Assembly (NCBI GenBank): GCA_009914755.4
Contig: CP068257.2
Span: 16,256,001-16,320,000 of the forward strand
Length of the DNA: 64,000 nt
From: the human T2T-CHM13v2.0 reference genome, Homo sapiens
Direction: 5' to 3'
Position 1 is the stretch's first letter. The number at the start of each line of letters is the position of its first letter. Of the stretch, positions 11,453 through 60,482 are shown in pieces. A program made the translations under genes and the position numbers. Under the pieces are notes generated by a model. The model had not been told where the DNA came from, ran no database searches, and saw only the letters and a program-made list of their open reading frames with translations.

Positions 11453-13861
<2,409 letters not shown>

Positions 13862-14470
13862 AAACCACTTATTTTAAAATAAAACAATATGATAAGCATT
13901 ATATTAAATCGACAATTAATATAATATGTTAAAAAATAATTAAAAGCATTATTTAAAATAGAATAATAAACTATTTCCTCCATAAGGTCAATTAGGTATT
14001 CTGCCTTCATTGCCTTAAGGAAGGGACAATACAGACAAATCTGATCACAAAAGTTAAATTCTTGGTTAATCTATTTCTACTTCTAGAATTTAGCAGTAAA
14101 TGATAGATTTTGAAGATGAGATAAAGAGTTGTTTTTCCTGCTTCTGATTTACTGAACCTAGGAAGAAAGAAAGTGAGAAGGTGAACAAGAGGCTAGATAT
14201 GGTGTTACTAAAAATTGGAGGCTGACACTTGATTTCTCTCCTTTGTTGACTGCCACTGCCATCTTAAAGGAAGACAGCAACCTCAGATACGTTGGAGTCT
14301 CAGATAATTAATTGAAGGGAACTATGCTGCTGTTTGCTGAACTTAATTTGTCCCATTGCTAGAGCCAATTGTTAAGTTTTTAGGAGTTTCGTGAACTTGC
14401 TAGTATCACATTGGTAACTTGAAATCAGCCATGGTGAGAGTTTTAATCTACAGAAATGGGCAGATGCTCA

Positions 14471-20338: not shown

Positions 20339-20862
20339 TGTAAAGGCTAATTTTAGGTGTACACTTGACTGCATTAAGTAATATCCAGAGAGCCGGTAAA
20401 GCATTATTTCTGGGTCTATGAGGGCGATTTTGGAAAAGATTGACATTTGAGCCAGCAGACTACGTAAGGAAGATCCACTCTCACTGAATGTGAGCGAGCA
20501 CCATCCAATCAGCTGAGGGCCCAGATAGAACAAAAAGGCAGAAGAAAATCAGATTCACTCTCTCTCTTCTGGAGCTGAAACAACTTTCTTTTCCTGCCAT
20601 AGGACATCAGGACCCCAGGTTCTCTGGTCTTGGGACTCTGAGACTTGCACCAGGAATCCTGCCCAGGCTCTCAGGCCTTTGGACTCAGACTGAGCTACTT
20701 CACTGGCTTTCCTGGTTCTCCAGCTTGAAGATGGCAGATCGTGGGACTTCTCAGCCTCCATAATTGAGTGAGCCAATTCCCTGGTAAGTCCCCTCTCACG
20801 TATTTATATCTATATCCTTATACTATTTGTTCTGTTTCTCTGAAAAACCCTGAAGAACACAG
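20339..20862 (+). mobile_element. MLT2-type (ERVL) solo LTR, near full length (~520 bp)
   Basis: Starts GTGTACACTTGACTG, has AGCACCATCCAATCAGCTGAGGGCCCAGATAGAACAAAAAGGC, GACTTCTCAGCCTCCATAATTGAGTGAGCCAATTCCCTGG and ends TGTTCTGTTTCTCTGAAAAACCCTGAAGAACACAG, matching the MLT2 motif order. Confidence 0.65.
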
Positions 20863-28344: not shown

Positions 28345-28461
28345 AATACAGTTGGGAATCAGGATTAAGACATTCTAAAGGCAAATATTATAAAAAGAAT
28401 AGTCTGGAACATAAGTCACTGGAAGTTTAGGTTAAAGAGTGCATTAGTGAGCAATCTGGGC
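28345..28461. repeat. Low-copy direct repeat, copy A (117 bp; ~96% identical to 30183-30300)
   Basis: AATACAGTTGGGAATCAGGATTAAGACATTCTAAAGGCAAATATTATAAAAAGAATAGTCTGGAACATAAGTCACTGGAAGTTTAGGTTAAAGAGTGCATTAGTGAGCAATCTGGGC. Confidence 0.85.
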
Positions 28462-30182: not shown

Positions 30183-30300
30183 AATACAGTTGGGAATCAG
30201 GATTAAGACTTTCTAAAGGCAAATATTATAAAAAGAATACTCTGGAACATAAGTCACTGGGAAGTTTAGGATAAAGAGTGCATTAGTGGGCAATCTGGGC
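30183..30300. repeat. Low-copy direct repeat, copy B (118 bp), 26 bp downstream of the MST LTR
   Basis: Same sequence as 28345-28461 with 4 substitutions and 1 single-base indel. Confidence 0.85.
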
Positions 30301-30354
30301 CATTTTGGAAATTGCCTTTCTATAATCTATCCTAGGTAGAAAGACCTTTTAAAT

Positions 30355-30604
30355 ACACAGACACACACACACACACGCACACACACACAGACATACACAC
30401 ATATGTGTATGCATATATGTATATGTATGCATATATGTGTATATGTATGTATATGTATATCTGTGTGTATGTATGTATATCTGTGTGTATGTATATATGT
30501 ATATATGTATATATATGTATATATGTATATATGTATATATATGTATATATGTATATATGTATATATATGTATATGTATGTATGTGTGTGTGTATATATAT
30601 ATAT
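30355..30604. repeat. Compound microsatellite (CA)n-(TATG/TATATG)n-(TG)n-(TA)n, ~250 bp
   Basis: ACACAGACACACACACACACGCACACACACACAG ... TATGTATATATGTATATATATGTATATATGTATATATG ... GTGTGTGTGTATATATATATA. Confidence 0.95.
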
Positions 30605-30952
30605 CCCAGAGTTGAAGAAAACTTGAATATTGGCTCCAGAAAAATAGGGAAATGAGAGGGAGTTGAATATACCCCTGCCCACACGTATAGAATGGAATTT
30701 GGGCATTTCCTAGGCAGATTATAGATGAGGTTTGTCTTTAGCGCTTATAACATTGTCTTTGATATCCTCTCTGTTCCTGGCTTGCTACGTGCTGTTCTTA
30801 TATTTAGAAGGTGGTCATATGGTCCTGACAGTTGTTGCCTAATAGTGGTTCAAAACATTTCTTTTCTGTGGTATATTTGCATTTAATAGAGGACAGGAGA
30901 AGGCTGGAAGATTTTCAAGGCATAAAGGAATGGACTATAATGGATCCTCAGA

Positions 30953-57113: not shown

Positions 57114-57390
57114 AGTCTGGGTGTGGTGGCTCACGCCTGTAATTCCAGCACTTTGGGAGCCTGAGGTGAAAGGATCATGAGGTCAGGAGTCCAAGACCAG
57201 CCTGACCAACATGGTGAAACCTTGTCTCTACTAAAAATACAAACATTAGCTGGGTGTGGTGGTGCGTGCCTGTAATCCTAGCTACTCAGGAGGCTGAGGC
57301 AGGACAATCACTTGAACCCGGGAGGTGGAGGTTGCATGAGCTGAGACTGTGCCACTGCACTCCAGCCTGGGCGACAGAGCGAGACTCTGT
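57114..57390 (+). mobile_element. AluS SINE
   Basis: CTGGGTGTGGTGGCTCACGCCTGTAATTCCAGCACTTTGGGAGCCTGAGGTGAAAGGATCATGAGGTCAGGAGTCCAAGACCAGCCTGACCAACATGGTGAAACC ... GCGAGACTCTGTCTCAAAAAAAA. Confidence 0.9.
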
Positions 57391-57671
57391 CTCAAAAAAA
57401 ATTTTTTTAAATAAATAAATGTATAAATGTAAAGACTAAGAAGTTGAAATTAAGGATGAAAGCAGATTTAACATATAAACATTAAGCAAAAAGAAAAAAA
57501 TTTGTGTTGTGGCCATAATATCAGAAAAAGTAGATTTTAAGACAAGGAGTATTACAAGAGATAATGAGTGATATTTTGCAATAAGTGGTTAATTTATTGG
57601 GAAGGCATAAAAGTCTTAAGTATATACAAGAAAACTTCAAAATACACGATGTAAAAGGTGTCAGAAATAAA

Positions 57672-57907
57672 GGAAAGAAGAGATAAACCCAAGAACATAG
57701 TTGCAAATTTTAACATCCTTGTGAAGGTTAATTTTATGTATAAGCTTGACTGGGCCACTAGATATTCAGATATCTAGTTAAACATTATTTCTGGGTGTGT
57801 CTGTGAGTGTTTCTGGAAGAGATCAGCATTTGAATCAGTGAACTGAGTAAAGAAGGTTGTCCTCTCCAATGTGGGTGGGCAACCAATCTGTTGATGGCCT
57901 AACTAGA
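57672..57907. repeat. Donor copy of an exactly duplicated 236-bp segment (L1M ORF2 / MLT2 LTR junction)
   Basis: GGAAAGAAGAGATAAACCCAAGAACATAGTTGCAAATTTTAACATCC ... AATGTGGGTGGGCAACCAATCTGTTGATGGCCTAACTAGA recurs base-for-base at 60181-60416. Confidence 0.9.
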
Positions 57908-58335
57908 ACAAAGAGACAGAGGAAGGGAGAATTTGTTCTCTCTGCCTGACTGAGCTTGGACATCAGTCTTCTCCTGCATTGGACTGTGTTTATACCATCA
58001 GTGCAGCTGGTCCTCAGGCCTTTGGACTTGGATTGGAACTTGAAGTATTGGTTCTGTTGTTTCTCAGGCTTCAGACTCAGGCTGGAACTACACCACCAGC
58101 TTTCCTGAATCTCCAGCTTGCAGATACATATTGCAAGACACATGTTACAGCTCAGCCTCCATAATTCATAAGCCAATTCCTCCAATTATTCATAATTCTC
58201 TCTCTGTATATATTTATAAATATATATTTAAAATATAAATATATAATTCTTATATATTTATATTTTAAATTAAATCATATATTTTATATAATATCTATAA
58301 TTTTATGTAATGTATAATTTTTAAAAAATATTTAT
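57727..58335 (+). mobile_element. MLT2-type (ERVL) solo LTR; 3' end merges into an AT-rich simple repeat
   Basis: TTAATTTTATGTATAAGCTTGACTGGGCCACTAGATATTCAGATATCTAGTTAAACATTATTTCTGGGTGTGTCTGTGAGTGTTTCTGGAAGAGATCAGCATTTGAATCAGTGAACTGAGTAAAGAAGGTTGTCCTCTCCAATGTGGGTGGGC ... CAGCCTCCATAATTCATAAGCCAATTCCTCC follows the MLT2 consensus. Confidence 0.7.
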
Positions 58336-58345
58336 AATCTGGGTC

Positions 58346-58495
58346 TGTTTAGGCTACTGTCATAAACTTTTACTACCATCAACTGGATAGCTTATAGACA
58401 AGAGGAATTTATTTCTCACAGTTCTGGAGGCTGGAAAGTCCAAGATGAAGGCACAGGCAGATTCAGTGTCTGGTGAGAGCATGTCCATTAAGGTG
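58346..58495 (+). mobile_element. MLT1-type LTR 5' fragment
   Basis: TGTTTAGGCTACTGTCATAAACTTTTACTACCATCAACTGGATAGCTTATAGACAAGAGGAATTTATTTCTCACAGTTCTGGAGGCTGGAAAGTCCAAGATGAAGGCACAGGCAG. Confidence 0.55.
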
Positions 58496-59149
58496 TTCTA
58501 AGCAAAAGAGCAGTTCTTTTCTAAGAAATTTTTACCTTCAATGTTGACCAACTGAATAAAAATTCAGCCACCTTAAAAATGATAATTTCTTTTTTCACTG
58601 AAATAATCTTACCTGCCTGAAGTCATGGGATTAAATATTATCCTGGAGATTCATCTCATGATTGCAGGTGGCATTAAGTGAATGATTAAATGGCTATTCT
58701 TAATCTCCTATTGTCCATTTCTGAAAAAGTTTTCCTGAGAAAAACCCTGACTTCTTTAGTAGGGGTTGTGCTATTATTGTCATAGATGTAAATACTGTAC
58801 AATTGTTCTACTCCTTTCTCTTGAAATCTTACAACCTGACTTTAAGCTCCGCTGTTTTATTACTTTTTTTTCCTCTTGGAAACACCTTTAGTTTTCAGGA
58901 GAGTCCTAGGAATATTCAATTAAAATTCTGCATAATGACTCTTTAGACAGTCACCAGGGGAGTACTAATGCAGAAACCATGAGACCAGCTTATCTTAGAG
59001 TTGCCAAATATACCTGAAAATCATATAATGAGTGGATTGATATTGCACATAAGAGTCAGAGTAGTGGGAATTTTGATTTGCCCTCAGAAATGATGTGCTT
59101 TAGGGAAAAAAATTGCTTGCTTTTTTGGGAATAGACTTTTATAAAAACC

Positions 59150-59300
59150 TGAAGTGCTGTGAAGCAAGTCAGGGGATTTGGGTTCCAGGGCTTGCATGGT
59201 CACTTACTAATTCTGTGGTTAGATGTCTTCAATCCTTTATTTGTCAATAATTTGTGAGGCTGTTTTGAGGATTAAACAAGGATGTCTCAGAAAAGAGCTT
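59150..59300 (+). mobile_element. MIR SINE fragment
   Basis: GGTTCCAGGGCTTGCATGGTCACTTACTAATTCTGTGGTTAGATGTCTTCAATCCTTTATTTGTCAATAATTTGTGAGGCTGTTTTGAGGATTAAACAAGGATG parallels MIR GGTTCGAATCCCGGCTCTGCCACTTACTAGCTGTGTGACCTTGGGCAAG...GGGTTGTTGTGAGGATTAAATGAG. Confidence 0.5.
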
Positions 59301-59458
59301 CAGAAATATATTAAAGCCCATCTATCTGTTTGACTGAATGCCTTGATCCCGGAAGAAAAAGATTTTGAGGAGTTCATATAACTTTCAGGGAGTCTTTTCA
59401 TATGTTCTATGGGGATTGCAGGCTAGGAGTATCGAGTCAAAAGAGAAGCATCTCCATC

Positions 59459-59874
59459 TGATATAGTTTGAATATTTGTCTGCATCCAAATCTCATGTTG
59501 AGATGTAATCCCCAGTGTTGGAGATGGGGCCCAGTGGGAGGTGTTGGAATCACGGGGGTGGGTCCTTCATGAATGATTTGGGTCATCTCCTTGATGACAA
59601 GTGAACTCTTGCACTGAATTCACATGAGATCTGGTCTTTTAAAAATGTGTGACACCTCCCCTCACTCTCTCTCTCATGCTTCTCCTGCCATGACACGCCT
59701 GCTCCACCTTTATCTTATGCCATAATTGAAAGCCTCCTGAGGCCCCCCCAGAAGCAGATGCTAGCACTATGCTTCCTGCACAGCCTCCAGAACTGTGAGC
59801 TAATTAAACCTCTTTTCTTATAAATTACCTAGTCTCAGATATTTCTTTATTGCAATGCAAGAACAACCTAAGAT
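59459..59874 (+). mobile_element. MSTB-type MaLR solo LTR
   Basis: TGATATAGTTTGAATATTTGTCTGCATCCAAATCTCATGTTGAGATGTAATCCCCAGTGTTGGAGATGGGGCCCAGTGGGAGGTGTTGGAATCACGGGGGTGGGTCCTTCATGAATGATTTGGGTCATC ... CCCCCAGAAGCAGATGCTAGCACTATGCTTCCTGCACAGCCTCCAGAACTGTGAGCTAATTAAACC ... CAATGCAAGAACAACCTAAGATA. Confidence 0.8.
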
Positions 59875-59902
59875 ACCATCCTTCCAATCTTTATATCAGT
59901 TT

Positions 59903-60482
59903 CTTAGTCTGTTTGGGCTGGCATAACAAAAATATCAAAGACTAGATGGCTTATAAACAACATAAATTTATTTATCACAGTTCTGGAGGCTGAGAGGTCC
60001 AAGATCAAGGCACCAGCATATTCAGTGTCTGGTGAGGGCCCACTTCTGGTACCTTAGAGAGCTATCTTCTCACTGTGTTTTCATATGGCAGAAGGGGCCA
60101 GAAAATTATCTGGAGTTTTTTCTATGAGTGCACTAATCCCATTCATGAGAGCTGTGTCCTTATGACCTTAACCCCTCAAAGGAAAGAAGAGATAAACCCA
60201 AGAACATAGTTGCAAATTTTAACATCCTTGTGAAGGTTAATTTTATGTATAAGCTTGACTGGGCCACTAGATATTCAGATATCTAGTTAAACATTATTTC
60301 TGGGTGTGTCTGTGAGTGTTTCTGGAAGAGATCAGCATTTGAATCAGTGAACTGAGTAAAGAAGGTTGTCCTCTCCAATGTGGGTGGGCAACCAATCTGT
60401 TGATGGCCTAACTAGATGAGGCCCTCAAAGGCCTCATCCCAAATATATCACATTGGGGATTAGGTTTCAACATATGAATTAA
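59903..60482 (+). mobile_element. MLT1-type MaLR solo LTR interrupted at 60180-60421 by the 236-bp templated insertion
   Basis: TGTTTGGGCTGGCATAACAAAAATATCAAAGACTAGATGGCTTATAAACAACATAAATTTATTTATCACAGTTCTGGAGGCTGAGAGGTCCAAGATCAAGGCACCAGC ... CTTATGACCTTAACCCCTCAAAGG [insert] GCCCTCAAAGGCCTCATCCCAAATATATCACATTGGGGATTAGGTTTCAACATATGAATT. Confidence 0.7.
60181..60416. repeat. Inserted copy of the 236-bp segment, 100% identical to 57672-57907, followed by TGAG and flanked by 10-bp direct repeats CCCTCAAAGG
   Basis: Identical by eye over all 236 nt; CCCTCAAAGG occurs at 60173-60182 and 60422-60431. Confidence 0.9.

What the first reader, a model, noticed from the sequence alone, without database searches (positions are those of the whole stretch)
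57669..60431. Exact 236-bp templated insertion with a 10-bp flanking duplication, copied from 2.5 kb upstream
Positions 60181-60416 are base-for-base identical to 57672-57907. The donor spans the unique junction between an L1M ORF2 remnant and the 5' half of an MLT2 LTR. The copy therefore came from this locus and not from an independent transposon insertion. The copy sits inside an MLT1 LTR and is followed by 4 untemplated-looking bases (TGAG). The MLT1 sequence CCCTCAAAGG is duplicated on both sides (60173-60182 and 60422-60431), and there is AAAGG microhomology at the left junction. It has no poly-A and no transposon termini. The surrounding LTRs and L1s are 10-30% diverged, but this copy shows 0 mismatches in 236 bp, so the event is very recent or is an assembly or cloning artefact. 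Candidate mechanisms are a replication template switch (FoSTeS/MMBIR-type) with a short flanking duplication, or reverse transcription of a local non-polyadenylated transcript.
Basis: seen in the sequence. Interest (0 to 1): 0.6.

Follow-up and report, generated by a model that had tools for sequence, protein, structure and literature searches.

The report
Local copy-paste DNA repair scar
A 234-base stretch of old transposon debris was copied once from 2.5 kb upstream and pasted into another old repeat, and the junctions fit an error-prone DNA repair or replication template switch, which is a known and ordinary kind of mutation with no sign of function.

Summary
Window 57669-57907 and 60178-60416 are 239/239 identical, and this is the only long perfect repeat in the 64 kb. 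The copy interrupts an old LTR and is flanked by CCCTCAAAGG on both sides. Removing 60183-60431 restores an LTR that aligns straight through the junction with a paralogous copy.

Three corrections:
- **Copied length.** Five of the 239 bases (AAAGG) are microhomology with the target, so 234 bases are unambiguously copied.
- **Filler.** It is 5 nt (TGAGG), not 4, and it looks templated. GATGAGGCC (60415-60423) is the reverse complement of GGCCTCATC (60430-60438) in the adjacent flank (Monte Carlo p about 0.01).
- **Age.** Zero mismatches only bound the age to under about 11-16 Myr.

Every junction therefore carries microhomology (5, 2 and 2 nt). The event reads as three template switches: back 2.5 kb, onto the inverted adjacent flank, then home 10 nt behind the departure point. 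That last step produces the "target-site duplication".

There is no poly(A), no L1 endonuclease site and no terminal repeats. The best reading is DNA-templated, microhomology-primed synthesis (MMBIR/FoSTeS or polymerase-theta-type repair). This is a clean example of a known class, of modest interest. I could not obtain population or ape comparisons.

The parts
57488..57719 (+). Degraded L1 ORF2 (endonuclease-domain) remnant. Its last ~51 nt form the left part of the donor.
   Evidence: The translation with stops masked hits only LINE-1 ORF2 chains in the PDB (residues 68-102, E 0.02-0.3). The frame runs on colinearly to 57721. The part inside the donor gives no significant match on its own. 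A weak L1 ORF1 dsRBD hit lies upstream at ~55800 (E 0.11).
57720..58180 (+). Its first ~188 nt form the right part of the donor.
   Evidence: Aligns over 474 columns at 65% to a second copy at 20339-20780.
57669..57907 (+). Donor segment (the original), spanning the unique L1/LTR junction at about 57720.
   Evidence: 239/239 identical to 60178-60416. It is continuous with both of its flanking elements. An independent ENA metagenome contig (L001) is 895/895 identical to 57349-58243 and runs straight through it.
59902..60182 (+).
   Evidence: 69-70% identity to a paralog at 45097-45368/45426. 85% identity to a fragment at 58382-58480 (D2).
60173..60182 (+). Left copy of the 10-bp flanking duplication CCCTCAAAGG. 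Its last 5 nt (AAAGG, 60178-60182) are the microhomology with the donor start (57669-57673).
60183..60416 (+). Unambiguously copied DNA: 234 nt, identical to 57674-57907, in the same orientation as the donor.
   Evidence: Zero mismatches, 38% GC, no CpG.
60415..60423 (+). GATGAGGCC, an inverted templated stretch. GA is shared with the end of the donor copy, TGAGG (60417-60421) is the 'filler', and CC is shared with the right flanking duplicate.
   Evidence: It is the exact reverse complement of 60430-60438. Only 31 of 3000 random 5-nt fillers give a match of 9 nt or more within +-100 nt of the three breakpoints on either strand. It creates a 9-10 bp hairpin (-9.5 and -10.4 kcal/mol on the two strands, z -3.9 and -4.5) that is absent from the reconstructed empty site (-1.4 kcal/mol).
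60422..60431 (+). Right copy of the flanking duplication CCCTCAAAGG.
60430..60438 (+). GGCCTCATC, the presumed template of the inverted stretch. In the pre-insertion allele it lay directly at the departure point.
60432..60475 (+). Right part of the target LTR.
   Evidence: The reconstructed empty site aligns without interruption across the junction to 45097-45426, where the CCCTCAAAGG-equivalent is single-copy.

Best explanation
This is a single germline mutational event in a primate genome, most likely human. A free 3' DNA end in the target LTR, ending ...CCCTCAAAGG-3', left its template. It re-annealed through its last 5 bases (AAAGG) to the complementary strand 2.5 kb upstream on the same chromosome (or on the sister chromatid or homolog) and was extended for 234 nt. 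The join back to the target went through a second short synthesis step that copied 5-9 nt of the adjacent flank in inverted orientation (GATGAGGCC from GGCCTCATC), with 2-nt overlaps (GA and CC) on either side. This step could be a snap-back of the opposite 3' tail or a switch to the opposite strand. Synthesis or ligation resumed 10 nt behind the point of departure, which is what duplicates CCCTCAAAGG. So the '10-bp target-site duplication' comes from overlapping 3' ends or an upstream re-entry, not from a transposase or L1 endonuclease cut. Two settings give this outcome and the sequence cannot separate them: (a) fork stalling and template switching / microhomology-mediated break-induced replication, and (b) repair of a staggered double-strand break by microhomology-primed synthesis (polymerase-theta-like, SD-MMEJ), finished by end joining. 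What is shown: the anatomy, the microhomologies, the direction of copying, and the absence of retrotransposition hallmarks. What is inferred: the order of the steps, the enzymes, and the germline timing. No function is implied, since the product sits in repeat-derived non-coding DNA.
For: The exact 239-nt direct repeat is the only one of its kind in the window. The donor spans a unique L1/LTR junction and is continuous with its flanks, while the copy interrupts an LTR that is restored by removing 60183-60431. The left junction has 5-nt microhomology (chance about 1.3e-3). The filler is explained as an inverted copy of the adjacent flank with 2-nt overlaps on both sides (p about 0.01) and gives a new strong hairpin. 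There is no poly(A), no TT/AAAA-type L1 endonuclease site in either orientation and no terminal inverted repeats (10/25 matches). Published descriptions match. Germline templated insertions flanked by microhomology, with several templates, are attributed to MMBIR-like switching (PMC8421209). Pol theta alternates between snap-back (in cis) and in trans templated extension during end joining (PMC4912351). In human cells, templated insertions at breaks have a median size of 120 bp, and 59% have one microhomology end and one blunt end, interpreted as microhomology-mediated invasion completed by end joining (bioRxiv 10.1101/2022.09.30.509517).
Against: 234 nt copied from 2.5 kb away is longer and more distant than the classic Pol-theta or MMB-TI inserts, which are usually under about 30-100 nt and drawn from within 100 bp. 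End-joining scars usually carry small deletions rather than a 10-bp duplication. The 2-nt overlaps are individually weak (chance about 0.07 each), and the p of about 0.01 for the inverted filler depends on the search space I chose. Nothing in the sequence distinguishes a DNA template from an RNA template. No second genome or read set covering the target site could be obtained, so the presence of the insertion in real chromosomes rests on this one sequence.
Confidence: 0.7

Rival explanations
1. RNA-templated patch. A local, non-polyadenylated transcript or R-loop RNA covering 57669-57907 was reverse-transcribed and used to fill a break in the target LTR. The reverse transcriptase could be L1 ORF2p acting independently of its endonuclease, Pol theta, or another RT. 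This would be a 'templated sequence insertion' in the sense of Onozawa and Aplan.
For: Templated sequence insertions of 73-414 bp (median 191) occur at breaks in human cells. They are enriched for transcribed sequence and are reduced by RT inhibitors (PMC5110952). Transcription and R-loops at donor sites promote insertions. The insert size of 234 nt fits. Junction microhomology and a short extra sequence are class 2 features.
Against: There is no poly(A), no polyadenylation-type 3' end and no L1 endonuclease site. A flanking duplication is not a class 2 feature, and class 1 requires poly(A) and TTTT/A. The donor is only 2.5 kb away in cis and in the same orientation, which local DNA template switching predicts and a diffusible RNA does not particularly predict. 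The filler is templated from the target flank. No evidence of transcription was available. No Rfam family lies in the window.
Confidence: 0.12
2. Capture of a free double-stranded DNA fragment, about 240 bp long and released from the neighbouring region during repair, replication or microDNA formation, into a staggered double-strand break by end joining.
For: Fragment capture at breaks is documented for plasmid and mitochondrial DNA (PMC5110952). The donor is intact, as expected if the fragment was a copy. Fill-in of a staggered break gives a flanking duplication.
Against: It requires an extra, unexplained step to make a free copy of exactly this segment. The 5-nt microhomology precisely at the copy's start, and the inverted templated filler with 2-nt overlaps, are what primed synthesis predicts rather than blunt ligation. 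Same orientation and proximity would be coincidental for a free fragment.
Confidence: 0.1
3. Assembly or cloning artefact. The second copy does not exist in the organism and arose in a clone (for example a template switch during propagation in E. coli) or in assembly.
For: Perfect identity among otherwise 15-35% diverged repeats. No independent sequence of the target site could be found. The only independent contig, from a short-read metagenome assembly at 3x coverage, runs through the donor without breaking at the repeat ends. That would be easiest if the sample lacked a second copy, but this is weak evidence.
Against: Assembly errors give collapses, tandem expansions or chimeric joins. They do not give a 249-bp insertion with a precise 10-bp flanking duplication, 5-nt microhomology and an inverted templated filler, all of which are biological repair signatures. 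Zero differences is fully compatible with a real event up to several Myr old.
Confidence: 0.05
4. Mobilisation by a transposon machinery, such as a non-autonomous DNA transposon, a Pack-type capture or an L1-mediated processed copy.
For: A flanking duplication of 10 bp lies within the range of L1 (7-20 bp) and of some DNA transposases.
Against: There are no terminal inverted repeats (10/25 matches), no poly(A) and no L1 cleavage motif in either orientation. The 'element' is a fragment that straddles two unrelated dead repeats. There are only two copies in the window, and no hit in the scanned collections.
Confidence: 0.02

Closest known systems
MMBIR/FoSTeS templated insertions (MMB-TI; Hastings/Lupski model; Osia et al. 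2021, PMC8421209)
   Same: The insert is copied from a nearby template and the donor is retained. There is microhomology at every junction and more than one template is used in a single event. One template is inverted and lies within 100 bp. The event returns to the original locus and persists as a harmless germline variant in non-coding DNA.
   Different: The main template is direct, 2.5 kb away and 234 nt long. The operational MMB-TI signature is an inverted template within 100 bp. The inverted piece here (5-9 nt) is below the 10-bp minimum of that detector. Dependence on replication is untested.
Polymerase-theta-mediated end joining with snap-back or in trans templated inserts (Kent et al. 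2016, PMC4912351; SD-MMEJ, Yu and McVey 2010, PMC2943611, title/abstract seen only in the search list, not read)
   Same: A short inverted copy of the flank is primed by a 2-nt pairing. In the snap-back reading, the 3' tail CC-TTTGAG-GG folds on itself and is extended by CCTCA(TC). The newly made sequence then provides the microhomology for the final join.
   Different: A 234-nt distant copy and a net 10-bp duplication are atypical; short inserts with deletions are usual. No genetic evidence for POLQ involvement is available.
Templated sequence insertion polymorphisms (TSIPs), class 1 and class 2 (Onozawa and Aplan 2016, PMC5110952)
   Same: A 100-400 bp non-repeat-unit sequence is copied, not cut, from elsewhere and inserted. 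It shares a flanking duplication of 5 bp or more with class 1, and microhomology plus extra nucleotides with class 2.
   Different: It lacks the poly(A), poly(A) signal and TTTT/A site of class 1. It has the duplication that class 2 lacks. The donor is local (2.5 kb in cis) rather than distant. It fits neither class as defined.
Templated insertions at induced and spontaneous breaks in human cells (Min et al., bioRxiv 10.1101/2022.09.30.509517)
   Same: The insert size is of the same order (reported median 120 bp). One junction has clear microhomology and the other is near-blunt or has filler. The donor is preferentially close to, or in contact with, the acceptor. The model is microhomology-mediated invasion, synthesis, displacement and end joining.
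   Different: Those are somatic events in a reporter setting, linked to transcription or R-loops or to a second break at the donor. Neither link can be assessed here.

Membership tests
MMBIR/FoSTeS-type templated insertion | The inserted sequence is a copy of a nearby genomic template, and the template is retained. | tested here: met
   239/239 identity to 57669-57907, which lies 2,509 bp upstream with the donor intact.
MMBIR/FoSTeS-type templated insertion | Microhomology at the switch junctions. | tested here: met
   5 nt (AAAGG) at switch 1. 2 nt (GA) and 2 nt (CC) at switches 2 and 3 if the inverted template is accepted.
MMBIR/FoSTeS-type templated insertion | Iterative switching or several templates in one event. 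| tested here: met
   A second, inverted 9-nt template lies at 60430-60438 (p about 0.01).
MMBIR/FoSTeS-type templated insertion | Origin at a stalled or collapsed replication fork (POLD3/BIR dependence). | not testable with these tools
   This needs genetics or replication-timing and fork-direction data.
MMB-TI as operationally defined by MMBSearch | Insert of 10 bp or more that is an inverted copy of a template within 100 bp. | tested here: not met
   The main insert is direct and 2.5 kb away. The inverted piece is only 5-9 nt (definition).
Pol-theta-mediated end joining (TMEJ / SD-MMEJ) | A short templated insert copied from the flanks, in cis snap-back or in trans, that creates the microhomology used for joining. 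| tested here: met
   GATGAGGCC is the reverse complement of the adjacent GGCCTCATC, and the hairpin is absent from the empty site.
Pol-theta-mediated end joining (TMEJ / SD-MMEJ) | Dependence on POLQ, with typical accompanying deletion. | tested here: inconclusive
   There is no deletion; instead there is a 10-bp duplication. Enzyme dependence is not testable.
Class 1 TSIP / L1 ORF2p-mediated retrocopy | Target-site duplication of 5 bp or more. | tested here: met
   CCCTCAAAGG occurs twice.
Class 1 TSIP / L1 ORF2p-mediated retrocopy | Poly(A) tail downstream of a polyadenylation signal. | tested here: not met
   The insert ends ...CCTAACTAGA|TGAGG and begins AAAGGAAAGAAG. There is no A or T run at either end.
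Class 1 TSIP / L1 ORF2p-mediated retrocopy | Insertion at a 5'-TTTT/A-3'-like endonuclease site. | tested here: not met
   The sites are ACCTTAAC/CCCTCA on the top strand and GGATGAGG/CCTTTG on the bottom.
Class 2 TSIP (break patched by a distant templated sequence) | No target-site duplication; microdeletion, microhomology and extra nucleotides at the junctions; a distant donor. | tested here: not met
   Microhomology and extra nucleotides are present. However, a 10-bp duplication is also present and the donor is only 2.5 kb away in cis.
Transposable element insertion (DNA transposon / LTR / SINE) | Defined element termini (TIRs, LTRs or an A-tail) and multiple copies with the same ends. | tested here: not met
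   There are no TIRs (10/25). The segment straddles two unrelated dead repeats. It has two copies only, and no match in the viral or genome collections.
NAHR-type segmental duplication | Breakpoints within long homologous repeats. | tested here: not met
   The flanks at the breakpoints share only 5 nt.

The most novel reading that the evidence does not exclude
The event may represent an under-described third kind of germline templated insertion. It would be local (kilobase-range, in cis, same orientation), a few hundred bases long, bounded by a transposon-like flanking duplication, yet made without any transposon enzyme. One possible route is invasion of a transcription bubble or R-loop at the donor, or use of the nascent RNA itself as template. 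If such events are common, some 'target-site duplications' in genomes are repair products, and part of what is catalogued as small dispersed duplications would share one mechanism. The second, older 118-nt dispersed duplication in the same window (28345-28461 / 30183-30300) hints that short-range copy-paste events may not be rare.
Probability: 0.1. Interest if true: 0.5.

Novelty: new member of a known kind. Interest (0 to 1): 0.25.

Why it matters
This is a clean natural specimen. The donor, the acceptor and all three junctions can be read base by base, so it works as a teaching or benchmark case for germline template-switch insertions. It also shows that a neat 10-bp 'target-site duplication' can arise without a transposase or L1 endonuclease, which matters for automated transposon and retrocopy callers. 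It has no evident functional consequence, because it lies in repeat-derived non-coding DNA. If it is polymorphic or human-specific, it would be a dated example of this mutation class.

Tried and rejected
**Independent copies of the target site.** I looked for these to test polymorphism, lineage specificity and artefact, and all attempts were negative:
- Exact-pattern scans of metagenome contigs with the left and right flanks.
- Scans of genome contigs with the left flank and with a donor-internal pattern.
- A scan of viral contigs.
- Exact protein look-ups of ORFs across or near the junctions.
- A homology search with a concatenate of eight stop-to-stop frames around the target, including the predicted empty-site frame.

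Only the donor locus turned up, as one 896-nt ENA metagenome contig.

**Repeat identity.** I tried to confirm the L1 identity of the donor's own 51 nt by searching the second half of the frame against the PDB, and found no significant hit. Pfam gave only a weak L1 ORF1 hint upstream. The family names MLT1 and MLT2 could not be tested because no repeat library is available. I could only show that both are old dispersed repeats with 65-70% paralogs in the window.

**Structured RNA.** Rfam found nothing in the window.

**Readings rejected.** I rejected a transposon, an L1 retrocopy, NAHR and gene conversion. Gene conversion fails because the copy is an insertion with duplicated flanks, not a replacement of homologous sequence. 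I also rejected out-of-register pairing of the two 85%-identical LTR fragments (58382-58480 / 59941-60039), because their offset of 1,559 does not match the 2,509 offset of the event.
Full report
**Observation**

Reading the sequence, the repeat finder (family D1) and a direct base-by-base extension agree. Window 57669-57907 and 60178-60416 are identical over 239 nt, in direct orientation, 2,509 nt apart. A self-BLAST of the whole 64 kb shows this is the only long perfect repeat. The next most similar pair is 118 nt at 95.8%.

The decamer CCCTCAAAGG occurs exactly twice in the window, at 60173-60182 and 60422-60431, immediately flanking the inserted material. The first five bases of the identity run (AAAGG) are also the last five bases of the left decamer. 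So 234 nt (60183-60416) are unambiguously copied and 5 nt are junction microhomology. The chance of 5 or more matching bases at a junction is about 1.3e-3 at local base composition. Between the copy and the right decamer lie five bases, TGAGG (60417-60421), not four.

**Direction of the event and context**

The window is primate DNA, with Alu-like units at 56700-57400 (D3-D5; my own recognition of Alu consensus) and L1 fragments. An 896-nt contig from an unrelated ENA metagenome assembly is 895/895 identical to 57349-58243. This suggests human contamination there and hence a human origin for the window.

The upstream copy is the original:
- To its left, a degraded reading frame (57488-57721) hits only LINE-1 ORF2 chains in the PDB, at endonuclease residues 68-102 (E 0.02), and runs colinearly into the donor.
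- The donor's own 51 nt of that frame are too decayed to score alone.
- From 57720 to 58180, an LTR-type repeat aligns at 65% to a second copy at 20339-20780.

The donor thus straddles a junction that exists only at this locus.

The downstream copy interrupts another old LTR. When 60183-60431 is deleted in silico, the reconstructed sequence aligns without a break across the junction to a 70% paralog at 45097-45426. In that paralog the decamer-equivalent is present once. I could not test the family names MLT1, MLT2 or L1M because no repeat library is available.

**The 'filler' is templated**

GATGAGGCC (60415-60423) is the exact reverse complement of GGCCTCATC (60430-60438). This nonamer consists of the last two bases of the donor copy (GA), the five filler bases, and the first two bases of the right decamer (CC).

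I replaced the filler with random 5-mers and searched +-100 nt around all three breakpoints on both strands. Only 31 of 3000 trials gave a match of 9 nt or more containing the whole filler (p about 0.01).

The junction now folds into a 9-10 bp hairpin (-9.5 and -10.4 kcal/mol on the two strands; z -3.9 and -4.5). The reconstructed empty site has essentially no structure (-1.4 kcal/mol). In the pre-insertion allele, the template GGCCTCATC lay exactly at the point where the copied strand departed.

**What it is not**

- The insert has no A or T run at either end.
- The cleavage contexts (ACCTTAAC/CCCTCA on one strand, GGATGAGG/CCTTTG on the other) do not resemble the L1 endonuclease site.
- The ends of the insert are not inverted repeats (10/25).
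- No Rfam family is present in the window.
- It fits neither class of templated sequence insertion polymorphism as defined by Onozawa and Aplan (PMC5110952). Class 1 needs poly(A) and TTTT/A. Class 2 lacks a flanking duplication and uses distant donors.

**Mechanism**

The simplest account is three microhomology-guided template switches in one event:
1. A 3' end terminating in ...CCCTCAAAGG anneals by AAAGG to the complement of 57669-57673 and copies 234 nt.
2. The join back passes through 5-9 nt copied from the adjacent flank in inverted orientation, with a GA overlap.
3. Synthesis or joining resumes with a CC overlap 10 nt behind the departure point, which duplicates the decamer.

In a double-strand-break version, the right-hand 3' tail 5'-CC TTTGAG GG-3' folds back on itself. 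Its terminal GG pairs with CC and it is extended by CCTCA(TC). That extension then pairs with the ...GA-3' end of the newly copied strand. In a replication-fork version, the nascent strand makes the same three jumps.

These are the published signatures of three processes:
- MMBIR-like templated insertions, which accumulate as harmless germline variants (PMC8421209).
- Pol theta alternating between snap-back and in trans templated extension (PMC4912351).
- Microhomology-initiated, end-joining-completed insertions at breaks in human cells, with median size 120 bp (10.1101/2022.09.30.509517).

The anatomy is shown. The order of steps, the enzymes and the setting are inferred. I put 0.7 on DNA-templated, microhomology-primed copying. 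The rivals are an RNA template (0.12), capture of a free fragment (0.10), an artefact (0.05) and transposon machinery (0.02).

**Age**

The segment has no CpG and 38% GC. With 0.4-0.6e-9 substitutions per site per year on each copy, zero differences in 234 nt still has probability 0.16-0.30 for an event 6.5 Myr old. The 95% upper bound is about 11-16 Myr.

The event is therefore far younger than the surrounding repeats, whose paralogs are 65-85% identical. However, 'very recent' is not demonstrated. It could be human-specific, polymorphic, or shared with other African apes.

**What could not be done**

No tool here holds primate genomes. I tried to find independent sequence of the target site among contaminating human DNA in the public collections. 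I used exact DNA patterns, exact ORF look-ups and a protein search with concatenated frames that included the predicted empty-site frame. All were negative.

The single contig recovered covers only the donor. It runs through the 239-nt segment without breaking at its ends, in a short-read assembly at about 3x coverage. That is slightly easier to explain if the sample lacks the second copy, but it is not evidence I would lean on.

**Verdict**

The feature is a well-preserved instance of a known class of mutation, a local templated insertion made by microhomology-mediated template switching. I see no indication of function. Interest is modest.

Noticed in passing
window 28345-28461 and 30183-30300: A second short dispersed direct duplication: 118 nt at 95.8% identity (4 mismatches, 1 indel), 1,838 nt apart, with sharp boundaries (AATACAG...CTGGGC). 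I saw no flanking duplication, and the flanks have no other match in the window. It may be an older event of the same general kind. I did not work out which copy is the donor.
   Followed up: partly
window 58226-58246 / 58250-58270: A perfect 21-nt AT-only inverted repeat with a 3-nt spacer, inside an AT-rich tract (58200-58340). It lies between donor and target, about 320 nt right of the donor end (I14). Such palindromes can stall forks or break, so a link to the event is conceivable but untested. The independent metagenome contig also ends here.
   Followed up: no
window 57757-57778 (and its copy at 60266-60287): A near-palindrome, ACTAGATATTCAGATATCTAGT (9-bp arms, 4-nt loop), lies inside the duplicated segment (I20). 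It is not at either breakpoint.
   Followed up: no
L001 (ENA ERZ15610175, NODE_384284, 896 nt) = window 57349-58243: A metagenome assembly contains a contig 895/895 identical to this primate locus, with a 132-aa 'protein' (P0001) called on an LTR. This is an example of host DNA contamination producing a spurious protein entry.
   Followed up: partly
window 58382-58480 and 59941-60039: Two fragments of the same old LTR family, 85% identical over 99 nt and in direct orientation, lie between the donor and the insertion point: one about 475 nt right of the donor end, the other about 140 nt left of the insertion (D2). Their offset (1,559) does not match that of the event (2,509), so they probably played no role.
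   Followed up: partly
window 11580-14010 (- strand): A much younger L1 copy with long open ORF2-derived frames (405, 276 and 110 aa). It shows that the window also holds primate-specific L1 insertions.
   Followed up: no
window 30332-30706: A long TA/CA-type microsatellite tract that produces spurious 111-124-aa ORFs. It lies directly right of the second dispersed duplicate at 30183-30300.
   Followed up: no
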